A stretch of 64,000 nucleotides of DNA from Methanomassiliicoccales archaeon (GTDB taxonomy: Archaea > Thermoplasmatota > Thermoplasmata > Methanomassiliicoccales > UBA472), in contig CP058896.1 in the NCBI GenBank assembly GCA_013415865.1, forward strand, positions 267,957-331,956. Direction: 5' to 3'. How positions within the stretch are numbered: the first letter of the stretch is position 1; the number at the start of each line of letters is the position of its first letter. The translations under genes and the position numbers were made by a program. This document shows positions 60,635-64,000 of the stretch, one piece after another. The notes beneath the pieces are model-generated. The model was given only the letters and a program-made list of their open reading frames with translations. It did not search any database and was not told the origin of the DNA.

Positions 60635-63600
60635 ATGGAAGACAAGAAGCTGAACTGTGAAGGCATATTCGAGGCCATGCCGACCGCCGCTCTGATGATG
60701 GACAAGGAATGGAGGATCACTCACTTCAACGCCGCCGCCGAGGAGCTGACCGGCATGCCCAGGACGGACGCCATAGGGATGAAGGCCAAGGACATCTTCG
60801 GGACGCTGGGGAGACGTGGGGACCCTGTGATGGCCGGGATAATGAAAGGGTCGGAGGTCGATGTCCCGAAGTTCAGGTTCACCAATTCCTATGATGAGGA
60901 TGTGGTATGTCATCTGAAGGCCAAGGCGAAGAAGGACGCTGATGGCGCCATAGAGAACGTGGTAGTGTTCCTCGAGCCAGTCAGGAAAGATGACCATACG
61001 CTCAAGGTCATAAACTCGGTCCAGACCCCTATCATCGCCATGGACCGGGATTTCAACATCACGTACATCAACAGACCGGGACTTGAGATGCTCAAGCTGC
61101 CTGAGGACCAGGTCATCGGGAAAAAGTGCCATTCGATATTGAGGACGAAATATTGCAATACCGACAATTGCCTGATAAAAAGGTCGTTCCTAGACGGCAA
61201 GGAGCGTATGGGCGATGCTGTGGTGTCGTTGCCCTCAGGGGAGGTCCCCATAAGGGTGTTCACCTCTTTGATCAGGGATGAGAGGGGAGAGGTCATAGGG
61301 GCGACCGAGCAGTTCTTCGACATATCGAAAGAGCTCGAGATCACAAAGGAGGTCGAGCGGATCGCTGAGGCGGCCAGGCAAGGCAAGGTCAAGGAGAGGG
61401 CGAACGTTGACCGTTTTGATAACAACTACCGGAAGATCGTGGAAGGGGTCAACGATGTCATCAACGCCTATCTGGCCCCCCTTCTGGTCGCGAACTCCTA
61501 TATGGCGAAATTGGCAGCTGGGGAGATGCCACAGAAGATAACGAAGGAATATTCTGGGGACTTCGACAGATTGAAGGTGCACATAAACGAGACCATCGAC
61601 ACCATCAACATGATGGTCTCCGAGACCCAGATGCTTGCCGAGGCATCCGCCAAAGGCGATTTCAGCAGGAGGGCGGACGCCACGAAGCACAAGGGGGACT
61701 ATGCGAAGATAGTCGGTCTTTTCAATGACACCCTGGACCTCATGTCGAGGAAGATCGCTTGGTATGAGCAGATACTCGATTCGATCCCGTTCCCGATCTC
61801 TGTGACGGACATGGACATGAACCTGACCTTCATCAACAAGGCCTCGGAGAAGATCGTGAAAAGATCCAGAGCTGAGATGTATGGAAAACATTGCAGCAAC
61901 TGGAACGGCAAGATATGCGGGACGAGCGATTGCGGCATCATGAGGCTGAGAGGAGGAAACAACCAAACGTTCTCTGACCGCGGTGGGAGGATCACGCAGA
62001 TCACCTGCTCATACCTCAAGGACCTGAACGGTCAGAACATCGGCCACATAGAGGTGCTGCAGGACGTCTCCGCCGCAATGAAGCCTGCGCAGTACAATAA
62101 GATAGAGGTCGAACGTCTTGCCAACAACCTCAGGAACCTTGCAAGGGGAGACCTCAACATCGACCGCTCGATAGGAGAGGCGGACGAGCATACAAAGGAT
62201 GCGCGCGAGAACTTCGTGAAGATCTATGATAGTGTGGGCGAGGTCACCTCGGCCATCGAGCAGATGTCAAAGGACGCCAAGATGCTGGTGGACGCCGCCA
62301 TCCATGGCAGGCTCGACACCAGGGTCGATGCGTCAAGGCACAAGGGCGAGTTCAAGGCGATCGTCGATGGTGTGAACGCCACGCTCAACAGCGTCGTCGG
62401 GAACCTTGAGGCGATACCGACCCCGATCATGTTCATGGACAAGGACCTCAAGATCCAGTACATAAACAAGACCGGTGCGGCGCTCCTTGGAAGGACCAAG
62501 GACGAGCTCCAGAACGGACGTGTAAGGTGCTCGGAGGTATGGAGGACGTCGAAATGTAACACCCCTGGTTGCCCCTGCGCCACCGCGATGAGGACCGATG
62601 ATGTGGCCCAGACGGAGAACGACTGCGTCATCGCCGGGAATCGGATGGACATAGCCTGCGTCGGGGCTCCTTTGAGGGACATGGCTGGCAACGTCGTCGG
62701 ATCGTTCGAGTTCGTGTCGGACCAGACGGCCATAAAGAAGCAGATGAGGGTCTCGGAGAAGCAGAAGAAGTATCTTGACGACGTGGTGAACATCCTTTCA
62801 GAAGGTTTCGAGAGCCTTGCCTCGGGGGACATGACGACCTCCATCGAGATACCGCGGACGGACGACAAGGACCTGGAATCTTCGCAGATGGTCATGTTGG
62901 AGATCGGCGAGGCCATCGAGAAGTTCAGGCAGGGGATAGTCGAGCTGTTGACCGAGGTCAACAGGTCAGTGGACCTAGTGTCCTCGACCTCTCAGGAGCT
63001 GGCATCTTCCGCTGAGGAGATGAACGCCTCCACAGAACAGGTCTCCTCGGCGATACAGCAGATATCGAAGGGCGCGCAGAACCAGGCCGCCCAGGTGGAG
63101 GACACGGCGAAGATAATGGCGGACATCGCATCCTCCGTCGAGGTCGTGGTCGAGAGGTCCAACAAGGCCATGCAGACCGCCCAGGGAGGTTCCAAGAGCT
63201 GCGCTGAAGGAATGGTCACGGTGCAGAACACGGTCAAGAAGATGCGGGAGATCGAGAGGTCCTCGGCCGAATCCGCAAATGTGATCAACACCTTGGGACA
63301 GAGGTCCGAGGAGATAGGGCAGATCGTCGATGTCATCACGAGCATATCGGACCAGACCAACCTCCTTGCGCTCAATGCGGCGATCGAGGCCGCAAGGGCC
63401 GGCGAACAGGGAAGAGGGTTCGCGGTCGTGGCGGAGGAGGTCAAGAACCTCGCTGAGGACAGCAGAGAGGCGGCCGAGAGGATCGCGAAGATCGTCAAGG
63501 ACGTCCAATCGATGACGCTGAAGGCCGTCGAATCGATACGCTCCGGGAGCAAAGAGGTGACCGAAGGAGTGAGCGCCGCCGAGATGGCAGGAAAGGCCTT

Positions 63601-64000
63601 CGAGGAGATCAAGGGCGGAGTCGACAACATCGCGGCGATGGTCGATGAGATAGTGAAGCTGATGATCAAACAGAAAGAGGGTACCCAGCGCGCGGCGAAA
63701 TCGGTGGACGGCATAGCCTCGGTCGCAGAGGAGACCGCTTCGGCATCGGAGGAATCGGCATCATCCACTGAGGAGCTGACGGCAAGCATGGAGGATATGA
63801 CGGCCAGGGCGCAATCGCTCTCAGAGATGGCCATCAACCTGAAGAGGATAACCTCGAAGTTCAAGTTGGCCGAAGAAGAGCAGGAGATAGCCTCCCTCAA
63901 GCAATCATCCATGAGGGCCAAGGCCGAGAAGGGCAGACAGACCAAAAAGGAAGACCTTAAGGTACCGGCCAAGGTGAGGGAATCGCTCGAGAAGCGCGGC
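60635..64000 (+). CDS. Soluble multi-PAS methyl-accepting chemotaxis protein (5' complete, 3' truncated by window end)
   Basis: My own translation from ATG 60635 (preceded by AGGGGA) stays open for 1122 codons to the window end. The ORF is not in the supplied track. The canonical MCP signalling hairpin is ITSISDQTNLLALNAAIEAARAGEQGRGFAVVAEEVKNLAEDS. It has four PAS-like modules and three HAMP-like linkers. I saw no hydrophobic TM segment. Confidence 0.9.
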   Translation, partial: MEDKKLNCEGIFEAMPTAALMMDKEWRITHFNAAAEELTGMPRTDAIGMKAKDIFGTLGRRGDPVMAGIMKGSEVDVPKFRFTNSYDEDVVCHLKAKAKKDADGAIENVVVFLEPVRKDDHTLKVINSVQTPIIAMDRDFNITYINRPGLEMLKLPEDQVIGKKCHSILRTKYCNTDNCLIKRSFLDGKERMGDAVVSLPSGEVPIRVFTSLIRDERGEVIGATEQFFDISKELEITKEVERIAEAARQGKVKERANVDRFDNNYRKIVEGVNDVINAYLAPLLVANSYMAKLAAGEMPQKITKEYSGDFDRLKVHINETIDTINMMVSETQMLAEASAKGDFSRRADATKHKGDYAKIVGLFNDTLDLMSRKIAWYEQILDSIPFPISVTDMDMNLTFINKASEKIVKRSRAEMYGKHCSNWNGKICGTSDCGIMRLRGGNNQTFSDRGGRITQITCSYLKDLNGQNIGHIEVLQDVSAAMKPAQYNKIEVERLANNLRNLARGDLNIDRSIGEADEHTKDARENFVKIYDSVGEVTSAIEQMSKDAKMLVDAAIHGRLDTRVDASRHKGEFKAIVDGVNATLNSVVGNLEAIPTPIMFMDKDLKIQYINKTGAALLGRTKDELQNGRVRCSEVWRTSKCNTPGCPCATAMRTDDVAQTENDCVIAGNRMDIACVGAPLRDMAGNVVGSFEFVSDQTAIKKQMRVSEKQKKYLDDVVNILSEGFESLASGDMTTSIEIPRTDDKDLESSQMVMLEIGEAIEKFRQGIVELLTEVNRSVDLVSSTSQELASSAEEMNASTEQVSSAIQQISKGAQNQAAQVEDTAKIMADIASSVEVVVERSNKAMQTAQGGSKSCAEGMVTVQNTVKKMREIERSSAESANVINTLGQRSEEIGQIVDVITSISDQTNLLALNAAIEAARAGEQGRGFAVVAEEVKNLAEDSREAAERIAKIVKDVQSMTLKAVESIRSGSKEVTEGVSAAEMAGKAFEEIKGGVDNIAAMVDEIVKLMIKQKEGTQRAAKSVDGIASVAEETASASEESASSTEELTASMEDMTARAQSLSEMAINLKRITSKFKLAEEEQEIASLKQSSMRAKAEKGRQTKKEDLKVPAKVRESLEKRG

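What the first reader, a model, noticed from the sequence alone, without database searches (positions are those of the whole stretch)
60635..64000. Long MCP gene missing from the ORF track: soluble four-PAS chemoreceptor with a recurring C-x7/8-C-x4-C triad in three PAS modules
Seen:
- Translating from ATG 60635 gives an uninterrupted frame of 1122 codons to the window end. The track lists only antisense and alternative-frame shadows here.
- The protein has no hydrophobic TM segment.
- It has four PAS-like modules separated by three HAMP-like linkers: RANVDRFDNNYRKIVEGVNDVINAYL, RADATKHKGDYAKIVGLFNDTLDLM and RVDASRHKGEFKAIVDGVNATLNSV.
- It has a canonical MCP signalling domain.
- PAS modules 2-4 each carry the same cysteine pattern. 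KKCHSILRTKYCNTDNC has Cys codons at 61127, 61154 and 61169. GKHCSNWNGKICGTSDC has them at 61892, 61916 and 61931. VRCSEVWRTSKCNTPGCPC has them at 62528, 62555, 62570 and 62576.

Inference: the conserved triad, repeated three times in one receptor, suggests a metal or Fe-S/redox-sensing PAS variant. An [Fe-S]-binding PAS domain is known in NreB. This would make the protein a cytoplasmic redox or energy-taxis receptor.
Basis: partly seen in the sequence, partly recalled or inferred. Interest (0 to 1): 0.65.

Follow-up and report, generated by a model that had tools for sequence, protein, structure and literature searches.

The report
Chemoreceptor with three cysteine-triad PAS sensors
This is an intact soluble chemotaxis receptor of a methanogen-related archaeon whose three sensor modules each carry a strictly conserved three-cysteine-plus-glutamate pocket, probably holding an iron-sulfur cluster; that would make it a member of a large, unstudied family of redox-sensing receptors in anaerobes.

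Summary
ATG 60635 opens a frame that runs off the window; the identical database protein is 1126 aa, so only 4 codons are missing. It is a soluble MCP with this layout: PAS1, PAS2, HAMP_2, PAS3, HAMP, PAS4, MCP signalling domain. It lies inside a che–archaellum gene cluster of a Methanomassiliicoccales genome.

All Cys coordinates are exact. The triad C-x7/8-C-x4-C is far above chance (0.005 expected, 3 seen) and defines a large family. With the Cys columns masked from the profile, 500 of 500 high-scoring modules keep all three Cys and 498 keep a Glu on strand Iβ. Generic PAS modules have neither.

AlphaFold2 places the triad identically in all three modules: start of Eα, the Eα–Fα loop, and the N-cap of Fα. 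This is the classical PAS cofactor pocket.

The family is cytoplasmic and mostly in chemoreceptors. It is found in methanogens, Clostridia, Anaerolineae, sulfate reducers and spirochaetes. No solved structure or paper I could find covers it.

Two three-Cys Fe-S PAS precedents exist with different spacings: OrpR ([4Fe-4S]) and B. licheniformis NreB ([2Fe-2S], PDB 9WEX).

Verdict: the protein is probably an Fe-S (less likely Zn) redox/O2/sulfide taxis receptor. The cofactor is untested. It is a new variant of a known kind.

The parts
60635..64000 (+). Gene for a soluble 1126-aa methyl-accepting chemotaxis protein. The window holds codons 1-1122; the stop is 15 nt beyond the window end, at window-equivalent 64015.
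   Evidence: Open frame; identical 1126-aa protein P0001; L080 identical to the window, stop located; no TM segment.
60635..60988 (+). PAS1 (aa 1-118). It has no Cys triad and is a conserved N-terminal PAS type in the orthologues.
   Evidence: Pfam PAS/PAS_8/PAS_4; grouped with the non-triad modules; PAS fold in the full-length model.
60989..61354 (+). PAS2 (aa 119-240), x8 subtype. Triad C165 / C174 / C179 (codons 61127, 61154, 61169), Thr176 (61160), Iβ Glu225 (61307). No fourth Cys.
   Evidence: In the model C165 starts Eα (165-169), C179 directly precedes Fα (180-187) and E225 lies in Iβ (220-229).
61415..61609 (+). Full HAMP_2 domain (aa 261-325), two long helices.
   Evidence: PF18947 best stretch 261-325; helices 263-294 and 309-339.
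61685..61741 (+). N-terminal HAMP_2 fragment (aa 351-369, motif RADATKHKGDYAKIV...). It continues as the N-cap helix of PAS3.
   Evidence: PF18947 profile positions 1-19; helix 355-383.
61742..62095 (+). PAS3 (aa 370-487), x7 subtype of the W/His form. Triad C420 / C428 / C433 (codons 61892, 61916, 61931), Thr430, Iβ His471 (62045) and Glu473 (62051). Extra C458.
   Evidence: AF2 model with pLDDT 95.
62237..62389 (+). HAMP / HAMP_2 fragment (aa 535-585, motif RVDASRHKGEFKAIV...) preceding PAS4.
   Evidence: Weak PF00672 HAMP match (E 0.0018, 19 bits against a 25-bit cut-off, no stretch passing on its own) and a PF18947 N-terminal fragment (23.8 bits against a 24.3-bit cut-off); helices 521-556 and 572-587.
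62375..62752 (+). PAS4 (aa 581-706), x8 subtype with extra cysteines. Triad C632 / C641 / C646 (62528, 62555, 62570), C648 (62576, the C-P-C form), C664 on Gβ, C675 on Hβ, Thr643, Iβ Glu692 (62708).
   Evidence: Eα 632-636, Fα 647-654, Iβ 687-696.
62900..63925 (+). MCP signalling / adaptation coiled-coil hairpin (aa ~756-1097; Pfam best stretch 848-1030). The hairpin tip is near aa 922.
   Evidence: PF00015 at E = 3.7e-43; NCBIfam MCP models align over 756-1097; helices 745-921 and 923-1074.
53473..60416 (+). Upstream che genes on the same strand: cheA (53473-55407), cheC (55415-56110), unassigned ORF (56168-57004), usp (57098-57562), cheW (57771-58295), cheY (58292-58663), cheB (58678-59715), cheC-like (59736-60416).
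   Evidence: Pfam and NCBIfam. Beyond the window lie cheC, cheD, cheR and the archaellum operon.
60417..60634 (+). 218-bp intergenic region with a very AT-rich tract (60420-60470) upstream of the MCP start. Possibly its own archaeal promoter.
   Evidence: Sequence read directly. The sigma-70 scan is uninformative for archaea. Inference only.

Best explanation
The gene encodes a functional, soluble chemoreceptor that feeds the adjacent Che pathway and archaellum.

Proposed mechanism:
- Its PAS2, PAS3 and PAS4 modules each form a thiolate-rich pocket from three invariant Cys (start of Eα, the Eα-Fα loop, the N-cap of Fα), an invariant Thr two residues after the second Cys, and an invariant Glu on strand Iβ.
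- The pocket most likely holds an iron-sulfur cluster. The fourth coordination position would be filled by the Glu, by a subtype-specific His or Cys, or by an exchangeable small ligand.
- A change at the cluster would re-shape the Eα/Fα lid against the β-sheet. Such a change could be oxidation, loss of an iron, degradation by O2 or oxidants, or exchange of the fourth ligand (for example by sulfide).
- That movement would pass through the helices linking each PAS to the HAMP_2 elements and into the long coiled coil. There it would alter CheA activity, CheY phosphorylation and archaellum switching, with adaptation by CheR, CheB, CheD and CheC.
- The outcome would be redox, oxygen-avoidance or sulfide taxis in a strict anaerobe.

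Shown: gene integrity, architecture, pocket location, invariance of the residues, family size and distribution, che/arl context.

Inferred: the identity of the cofactor, the signal, and the sign of the response.
For: - Intact gene and architecture.
- The triad is non-random.
- Family-wide invariance tested without circularity: 500 of 500 modules keep all three Cys and 498 of 500 keep the Iβ Glu. Generic PAS modules scoring under 40 bits mostly have Gly at that column and 146 of 165 have none of the three Cys.
- Thr at C2+2 is 87-91% conserved, and the C2-x4-C3 spacing does not vary among modules scoring at least 100 bits.
- The same topological placement is seen in all three modules, in confident models.
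- C1 aligns with the flavin-adduct Cys of LOV domains.
- The Iβ Glu has the same strand parity as the position aligned to the residue I take to be Aer2 Trp283 (alignment; the residue number and its pocket-facing role are from my own knowledge).
- Eα, Hβ and Iβ residues covary within the x7 subtype, suggesting that this face of Iβ lines the same pocket.
- Variable extra ligands (Cys at C3+2 in 50% of x8 modules, His on Iβ in 64% of x7 modules) match the pattern of three fixed Cys plus a variable fourth ligand known for sensory Fe-S proteins (PMC8359166; PMC13478379).
- The module is always cytoplasmic: 145 of 146 membrane-bound hosts have it after the last TM segment.
- Most named host lineages are ones generally regarded as anaerobic (the lifestyle assignment is my own knowledge).
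- Experimental precedents exist for three-Cys Fe-S PAS sensors. OrpR holds a [4Fe-4S] through C52/C61/C65. BlNreB holds a [2Fe-2S] through C63/C66/C78, with C63 20 residues after β2 and C78 directly before the short α2 helix. C1 and C3 here occupy the same positions.
- Functional chemotaxis context, conserved across the order.
Against: - No direct evidence of any metal; sequence alone cannot tell Fe-S from Zn.
- The spacing differs from both precedents: OrpR is x8/x3 and NreB is x2/x11. No x8/x3 variants occur among 725 modules.
- NreB and OrpR could not be shown to be sequence relatives. The OrpR sequence was not obtainable, and no NreB entry was among the 45 PDB chains matched at E <= 0.01.
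- In BlNreB no His, Asp or Glu lies within 8.7 Å of the cluster, so an invariant Glu ligand would be a difference from that precedent.
- A few hosts carry names of lineages not usually thought of as strict anaerobes (Burkholderiales, Hyphomicrobiales and Acidobacteriaceae MAGs).
Confidence: 0.5

Rival explanations
1. The triad plus Glu, His or Cys binds a mononuclear metal, most likely Zn(II). The site would be either purely structural, stapling the Eα-Fα lid, or a zinc-thiolate redox switch that releases Zn on oxidation.
For: - Three Cys plus a His (x7) or a fourth Cys (x8) is a typical Zn ligand set.
- The C-x4-C element ends at a helix N-cap, a geometry common in zinc sites (own knowledge).
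- The Eα-Fα loop is predicted with very high confidence without any cofactor.
- A cytoplasmic PAS that binds Zn is known in WalK, which appears among the fold hits; that it binds Zn is from my own knowledge.
Against: - About a tenth of x8 modules (26 of 262) show no fourth-ligand candidate at the six positions checked, and 46% of x7 modules have exactly three Cys. The window's PAS2 has no fourth Cys and no Iβ His, though it does have His166 next to C1. Cys3-Glu zinc sites are unusual (own knowledge).
- WalK uses His, Asp and Glu ligands, not Cys (own knowledge).
- The bias toward anaerobe lineages and the two PAS precedents with three Cys point to Fe-S.
Confidence: 0.2
2. The pocket has no resident cofactor. 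The three thiols are themselves the sensor. They would either form a thiol/disulfide or persulfide switch, or act as an S3 binding site for a soft ligand such as As(III), Hg, Cd, Cu(I), Ni or polysulfide, making the protein a metal(loid) or sulfur-species chemoreceptor.
For: - Trigonal S3 sites are the classical way of sensing As(III) and other soft metals (own knowledge).
- The invariance of exactly three Cys with a variable fourth position fits this.
- The pocket corresponds to the ligand site of PAS domains.
Against: - Absolute invariance across thousands of receptors in very different habitats, and up to three or four tandem copies per protein, is more typical of a prosthetic site than of one specific toxic ligand.
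- The extra conserved Thr and Glu and the subtype-specific His or Cys argue for a fixed coordination sphere.
Confidence: 0.12
3. One of the cysteines ligates or covalently binds an organic cofactor such as a thiolate-ligated heme or a flavin adduct as in LOV. The other cysteines would be accessory.
For: - C1 aligns with the LOV adduct Cys.
- The nearest PDB profile match is the heme PAS of Aer2.
- Fold hits are dominated by LOV, FAD and heme PAS domains.
Against: - The LOV signature GXNCRFLQ, the flavin-binding Arg/Gln/Asn set and the Aer2 heme His/Trp are absent (motif tables; expected residues from own knowledge and PMC10468136).
- The match to Aer2 covers only the N-terminal half, outside the pocket.
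- Three invariant Cys are not explained by this reading.
Confidence: 0.05

Closest known systems
OrpR (DVU2106) PAS domain of Desulfovibrio vulgaris Hildenborough, a redox-sensing [4Fe-4S] PAS (PMC8359166)
   Same: - Cytoplasmic PAS of a strict anaerobe with exactly three conserved Cys (C52, C61, C65) at about the same distance from the domain start.
- The first gap is x8.
- An acidic residue at C1+2 occurs in 68% of x8 modules, and in PAS4 here (E634).
- Its fourth ligand is unknown and possibly a carboxylate.
- It senses redox potential.
   Different: - The second gap is x3 rather than the invariant x4, and no x8/x3 variant was found in 725 modules.
- The output is a sigma-54 activator, not an MCP.
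- Sequence homology could not be tested because the OrpR sequence was not obtainable.
NreB PAS of Bacillus licheniformis, a three-Cys [2Fe-2S] cluster with a labile SH ligand that senses sulfide (PDB 9WEX; PMC13478379)
   Same: - Three conserved Cys in a PAS pocket hold an Fe-S cluster with a non-Cys fourth ligand.
- The first Cys lies 20 residues after strand B, and the last Cys directly precedes the short F helix, as in the models here.
   Different: - The motif is C-x2-C-x11-C.
- No protein His, Asp or Glu lies near that cluster, whereas this family has an invariant Iβ Glu.
- The output is a histidine kinase.
- No NreB entry was among the PDB chains matched by the family profile at E <= 0.01.
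NreB PAS of Staphylococcus carnosus, an O2-labile [4Fe-4S] with four Cys
   Same: An Fe-S cluster in a cytoplasmic PAS used as an oxygen sensor.
   Different: - It has four Cys in a C-x2-C-x11-C-x2-C motif (as cited in PMC13478379).
- It is a kinase, not a chemoreceptor.
- It is a different PAS lineage.
Aer2 (Pseudomonas aeruginosa / Vibrio cholerae), a soluble PAS-heme, poly-HAMP chemoreceptor
   Same: - Soluble MCP with PAS modules embedded between HAMP units.
- Best PDB profile hit (E = 4e-8, N-terminal half of the PAS) and best NCBIfam hit.
   Different: - Aer2 binds b-type heme through His and Trp (own knowledge).
- The pocket half does not align.
- The NCBIfam score is 182 bits against a 1200-bit cut-off.
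- There is no Cys triad in Aer2.
Aer of E. coli, the FAD-PAS energy-taxis receptor
   Same: A PAS cofactor reads the intracellular redox state and drives taxis.
   Different: It is membrane-anchored, has a single PAS with FAD and a conserved Trp, has no Cys triad, and does not rely on methylation-based adaptation.

Membership tests
Methyl-accepting chemotaxis protein (MCP) | MCP signalling domain (PF00015) above the curated cut-off | tested here: met
   147.8 bits against a 34.6-bit cut-off, E = 3.7e-43. The model shows a long helical hairpin, 745-921 and 923-1074.
Methyl-accepting chemotaxis protein (MCP) | Genomic association with cheA/W/Y/B/R/C/D and a motility apparatus | tested here: met
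   che genes lie upstream. cheC, cheD, cheR and the archaellum operon lie downstream. The association is conserved in other Methanomassiliicoccales.
PAS fold | PAS profile hits above cut-off and a five-stranded sheet with the Cα-Fα helices | tested here: met
   PAS_4 scores 38.7-40.8 bits per triad module against a 23.1-bit cut-off. AF2 pLDDT is 95 for PAS3. Foldseek gives probability 1.00 to NifL, LOV, CitA and DosP PAS domains.
HAMP_2 (PF18947) | Profile hit above cut-off | tested here: met
   107.9 bits against 24.3 with three stretches. One is full (261-325) and two are N-terminal fragments.
NreB-type Fe-S PAS | Cys motif C-x2-C-x11-C(-x2-C) | tested here: not met
   The motif here is C-x7/8-C-x4-C. 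NreB motif taken from PMC13478379.
NreB-type Fe-S PAS | Detectable sequence relationship to NreB PAS | tested here: inconclusive
   No NreB-named chain among the 45 PDB sequences matched by the family profile at E <= 0.01, and no NreB model among the NCBIfam hits. 9WEX may postdate the PDB copies.
NreB-type Fe-S PAS | Bound Fe-S cluster | not testable with these tools
   Needs anaerobic purification and spectroscopy.
OrpR-type Fe-S PAS | Three conserved Cys spaced C-x8-C-x3-C | tested here: not met
   The first gap matches in the x8 subtype. The second gap is x4 in every module scoring at least 100 bits, and there are 0 x8/x3 cases among 725 modules.
OrpR-type Fe-S PAS | Conserved Asp/Glu two residues after the first Cys | tested here: inconclusive
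   D/E in 178 of 262 x8 modules. In the window this position is S167 in PAS2, N422 in PAS3 and E634 in PAS4.
OrpR-type Fe-S PAS | Sequence homology to the OrpR PAS domain | not tested
   The OrpR sequence could not be obtained: no supplement is held and no sigma-54 activators occur in the fetched loci.
Aer2-type PAS-heme receptor | NCBIfam equivalog score, and heme-binding His/Trp in the pocket | tested here: not met
   182.5 bits against a 1200-bit cut-off. Only the N-terminal half of the PAS aligns.
LOV domain | GXNCRFLQ flavin-adduct motif | tested here: not met
   C1 aligns with the LOV Cys, but the surrounding consensus is G-K-x-C-S-N-W or G-K-K-C-Y-D-x-F.

The most novel reading that the evidence does not exclude
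The C-x7/8-C-x4-C + Thr + Glu PAS module may be a previously unrecognised, very widespread class of Fe-S sensor domain. It would give strict anaerobes, including methanogens, sulfate reducers, Clostridia and Anaerolineae, their main cytoplasmic redox/O2/sulfide taxis receptors, and these would be the first Fe-S-cluster chemoreceptors.

In this protein, three non-identical subtypes sit in series: x8 with three Cys only, x7 with His, and x8 with C-P-C plus two more Cys. They could act as a graded or multi-signal redox ladder controlling the archaellum.
Probability: 0.4. Interest if true: 0.75.

Novelty: new variant of a known kind. Interest (0 to 1): 0.6.

Why it matters
How strict anaerobes, and methanogens in particular, steer away from oxygen or toward favourable redox or sulfide conditions is poorly understood.
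- The only survey of archaeal chemoreceptors I found files these sensors under generic 'PAS/PAC' and notes that many members of that family contain FAD or heme (PMC9680633).
- The broad PAS classification I checked mentions only nine NreB-like putative Fe-S PAS domains (PMC10468136).

This work defines a sharply bounded family. It has invariant Cys3-Thr-Glu, is always cytoplasmic, and is mostly in MCPs but also occurs in kinases and in STAS and GAF proteins. It has hundreds of members in the sets examined and probably thousands of cluster representatives.

If the modules carry Fe-S clusters, three things follow:
- Fe-S sensing would extend from transcription and kinase control to chemotaxis.
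- There would be a third coordination motif for three-Cys Fe-S PAS domains.
- Small single-module homologues (435-620 aa MCPs in Desulfovibrio, Maridesulfovibrio and Clostridium) would be tractable test systems.

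Tried and rejected
- Single-module and alignment queries to the word-indexed protein search returned almost nothing. 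Those two capped searches were effectively wasted. The exhaustive representative search and the genome scan replaced them.
The taxonomic picture therefore applies to x7.
- The counts from the representative search (138,758 / 36,873 / 1,862 at E <= 1e-3 / 1e-10 / 1e-30) are not triad-specific, because long generic PAS arrays also score highly. I use them only as loose bounds.
- Model coordinates are not exposed, so no Cys-Cys or Cys-Glu distances could be measured.
- The OrpR sequence could not be obtained, and an 'OrpR' word search was swamped by unrelated words.
- Two review papers were not held.
- The idea that the Iβ His and the Hβ Cys of the x7 subtypes are direct cross-strand neighbours was checked against the strand register and is not supported. 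They covary, but they are probably about 5 residues apart along the sheet.
- 'Chance motif' is rejected.
- 'Pseudogene or annotation artefact' is rejected.
- 'LOV or heme PAS' is rejected on motif grounds.

Full report
**Observation.** Translating window 60635-64000 (+) gives 1122 codons with no stop.
- The nearest upstream in-frame stop is at 60545, and ATG 60635 follows a GGGGAT Shine-Dalgarno-like element.
- The ORF lister shows only antisense and alternative-frame ORFs here because it omits ORFs that run off the source. The 'missing gene' is a tool convention, not biology.
- An identical 1126-aa protein (P0001, 'PAS domain-containing protein, Methanomassiliicoccales archaeon') is in the public collections.
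- Its contig (L080) matches the window at 13,366 of 13,366 bases. It places the TAA stop 15 nt beyond the window end, followed by a hairpin and a T-tract.
- All Cys codon coordinates in the finding are exact. The protein has 16 Cys in total and no hydrophobic segment (maximum Kyte-Doolittle 19-mer 1.33).

**Architecture.** Pfam finds four PAS stretches, three HAMP_2 stretches and an MCP signalling domain. Segment-wise scans and a full-length AlphaFold2 model (mean pLDDT 74.5; about 80-88 across most of the PAS modules) give the layout below.

| Element | Residues |
|---|---|
| PAS1 | 1-118 |
| PAS2 | 119-240 |
| Full HAMP_2 | 261-325 |
| HAMP_2 N-terminal fragment, running into the PAS3 N-cap helix | 351-369 |
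| PAS3 | 370-487 |
| HAMP / HAMP_2 fragment | 535-585 |
| PAS4 | 581-706 |
| Helical hairpin of the MCP domain | 745-921 and 923-1074 |

PAS1 and PAS2 abut directly, two of the three quoted linker motifs lie between PAS2 and PAS3, and the third lies before PAS4.

**Context.** Upstream on the same strand are cheA, cheC, an unassigned 278-aa ORF, usp, cheW, cheY, cheB and a cheC-like gene. Beyond the window come cheC, cheD, cheR and an archaellum operon with archaellins, FlaC and ArlH/I/J-type genes. In the other Methanomassiliicoccales loci with enough flanking DNA, the homologous receptor is again next to che genes such as cheR, cheW and cheB. This is therefore a working receptor of the motility system.

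**Is the triad real and conserved?**
- Shuffling the protein gives 0.0049 C-x7/8-C-x4-C matches on average, and never three in 20,000 trials. No other ORF in the window has the motif.
- Of 120 homologues, 93 carry at least one triad, and 160 of 192 PAS modules have it.
- To avoid circularity I rebuilt the profile with the three Cys columns masked and searched 344 proteins.
  - Scores are bimodal (median 113 bits, lower quartile 47 bits).
  - All 500 unique modules at or above 100 bits have all three Cys, and 498 have Glu at one Iβ column.
  - Of the 165 modules below 40 bits, 146 have none of the three Cys, and Gly is the commonest residue at the Glu column.
- Beyond residues common to PAS domains in general, as I judge from the Pfam PAS consensus (N146, D137, G162, G218, G222, D229), the family-specific invariants are the three Cys, Thr at C2+2 (87-91%) and the Iβ Glu (98-99%).
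- The second gap is x4 in every module scoring at least 100 bits. The first gap is 7 or 8, with x9-x4 in a few lower-scoring modules.

**Subtypes.**
- x8, consensus C-[YFH]-[DE]-x-F-[KN]-T-x-x-C-x-T-x-x-C, 262 modules. Half have a fourth Cys at C3+2.
- x7, consensus C-S-N-W-[NG]-A-x-I-C-x-T-x-x-C-G-I, 255 modules. 46% have exactly three Cys.
- Within x7 there is a clean three-way covariation. One form has Trp at C1+3, His on Iβ and Phe on Hβ. The other has Ala, Tyr/Phe and Cys at the same positions. The Iβ His and the Hβ Cys never co-occur (164 vs 68, 0 with both).
- In the window, PAS2 is a minimal x8 with three Cys. PAS3 is x7 of the Trp/His form. PAS4 is x8 with C-P-C plus C664 and C675.

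**Where the residues sit.** A PAS3 model built on a 50-sequence alignment has pLDDT 95. Together with the full-length model it places the residues identically in all three modules:
- C1 is the first residue of Eα.
- C2 is in the Eα-Fα loop.
- C3 directly precedes Fα.
- The Glu is mid-Iβ.

C1 aligns with the flavin-adduct Cys of LOV domains. In the Aer2 alignment the Glu has the same strand parity as the position aligned to the Trp I take to be Trp283, which by my own knowledge faces the heme pocket. The Eα/Hβ/Iβ covariation independently suggests that this face of Iβ lines the same pocket. I could not measure distances because model coordinates are not exposed.

**Distribution.**
- A scan of one genome per species with the x7 alignment found 336 encoding stretches.
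- The best 79 loci comprise 20 archaeal loci (Methanomassiliicoccales, Methanosarcinaceae, Methanolobus, Methanospirillum) and 59 bacterial loci. The bacterial loci are about 25 Bacillota/Clostridia, 6 Anaerolineae/Chloroflexi, 6 Desulfovibrio-like, plus spirochaetes, Armatimonadota, Cloacimonadota and others.
- 71 of the 79 host ORFs have an MCP domain. Six of the other eight are cut by contig ends.
- Among the best 142 new cluster representatives from the exhaustive profile search, 128 have a triad and at least 101 are MCPs.
- The module also occurs in a hybrid histidine kinase, a STAS protein, a GAF protein and a KaiC-PAS array.
- Of 303 triad proteins, 157 are soluble. In 145 of the 146 with TM-like segments, every triad lies after the last one, which makes the module cytoplasmic.

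**What is known.**
- No PDB chain carries the triad. Single-sequence searches give nothing significant.
- The family profile's best hit is the N-terminal half of the Aer2 PAS.
- Foldseek returns only generic PAS, LOV, FAD and heme domains at TM about 0.65.
- Six full-text searches bearing on this question found no Fe-S or Cys-triad PAS chemoreceptor.
- The PAS census mentions only nine NreB-like domains with a putative Fe-S motif.
- The archaeal chemoreceptor survey treats PAS/PAC sensors generically, noting that many contain FAD or heme.

Two experimentally characterised three-Cys Fe-S PAS domains exist:
- OrpR of D. vulgaris uses C52/C61/C65 (x8/x3). It holds a redox-sensitive [4Fe-4S]2+ that converts to [3Fe-4S]1+, with a conserved D/E54 as a possible fourth ligand.
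- B. licheniformis NreB uses C63/C66/C78 (x2/x11). It holds a [2Fe-2S] with a labile SH ligand and senses sulfide (PDB 9WEX).
- In 9WEX the first Cys lies 20 residues after β2 and the last Cys directly precedes the short α2 helix. C1 and C3 here have the same topological positions.

**Interpretation.** The evidence comes from several sources. The coordination set is invariant. It lies in the PAS cofactor pocket and is strictly cytoplasmic. Most named host lineages are anaerobic by my own knowledge. The fourth ligand varies, and there are two PAS precedents. Together these make an Fe-S cluster the most likely occupant (about 0.5). A mononuclear Zn-type site is next (about 0.2). A cofactor-free thiol or soft-ligand site is about 0.12, and an organic cofactor is unlikely (about 0.05). 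Whatever the occupant, the site is almost certainly the sensory centre of each module. The signal (redox potential, O2, sulfide, NO) and the sign of the response are inferred, not shown. Membership in the NreB or OrpR families is not supported at the motif level, so the claim is 'works like', not 'is a member of'.

**Verdict.**
- The feature is a new variant of a known kind: an Fe-S or metal PAS sensor with a new motif and a new output class, belonging to a large and apparently undescribed family.
- Interest is 0.6.

Noticed in passing
window 56168-57004 (+): A 278-aa ORF inside the che operon, between cheC and usp, has no Pfam, NCBIfam or PDB sequence match even at E = 1. Archaeal che clusters normally include the CheY-archaellum adaptor CheF (own knowledge), and no CheF-family hit was obtained for any che-cluster ORF scanned here. 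It may be a divergent CheF or a new component.
   Followed up: partly
window 59736-60416 (+): The 226-aa ORF directly upstream of the receptor is a divergent CheC-like protein. NCBIfam CheC_Thtogales gives E = 5e-15 at 56 bits against a 250-bit cut-off, and Pfam CheC gives E = 0.006. With cheC at 55415 and another cheC downstream (L080 13587-14210), the cluster has three CheC-type genes.
   Followed up: partly
window 57098-57562 (+): A universal stress protein (Usp) gene is embedded in the che operon between the unassigned ORF and cheW. A Usp gene also lies next to cheR in locus L015.
   Followed up: no
window 44385-46598 (+) and 50060-53218 (+): Two multi-PAS histidine kinases (REC-PAS-HATPase, and a roughly five-PAS array with HATPase) lie just upstream of the che cluster. 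They flank an acetyl-CoA synthetase gene (47831-49852) and an aquaporin gene (46791-47513, minus strand). Neither kinase has the Cys triad.
   Followed up: partly
window 60420-60470 (+): An extremely AT-rich tract with internal symmetry (ATAATATAATAATATAAAATATTTAATATTATATTTATA) lies in the 218-bp gap before the receptor gene. A similar AT-rich tract follows the gene's terminator-like hairpin in L080 (about 13385-13460). These are possibly archaeal promoter elements, which would suggest the receptor has its own promoter within the cluster.
   Followed up: no
P0124 (4799 aa), P0140 (3417 aa), P0152 (3100 aa): Giant proteins with 14-31 tandem generic PAS modules and no Cys triad top the profile search by summed score. 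These are unusually long PAS arrays.
   Followed up: no
x7-type modules in homologues, e.g. P0023 149-269 and P0050 806-925: There is a strict three-position covariation within the x7 subtype. Trp/His/Phe swaps with Ala/(Tyr or Phe)/Cys at Eα C1+3, Iβ and Hβ, which defines two pocket variants. The second has a fourth Cys on Hβ instead of the Iβ His.
   Followed up: yes
PAS1 of the orthologues, window aa 55-66: Many orthologues have a conserved G-K-K-G-C-P motif in the triad-less N-terminal PAS1, whereas the window protein has G-R-R-G-D-P at that place. PAS1 is a distinct conserved PAS type of unknown ligand.
   Followed up: no
window 11774-15922 (+): A 1382-aa ORF combines a papain-family cysteine protease domain with C-terminal bacterial Ig-like (Big_13) repeats. 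It is probably a large secreted or surface protease, set among glycosyltransferase and polysaccharide-synthesis genes.
   Followed up: no
L007 and L044 (contig CAVSDP010000036.1): Two triad-PAS ORFs of 457 and 475 aa in one Methanomassiliicoccaceae contig lack an MCP domain even though they are not at contig ends. They are either frameshifted receptors or stand-alone triad-PAS proteins.
   Followed up: no
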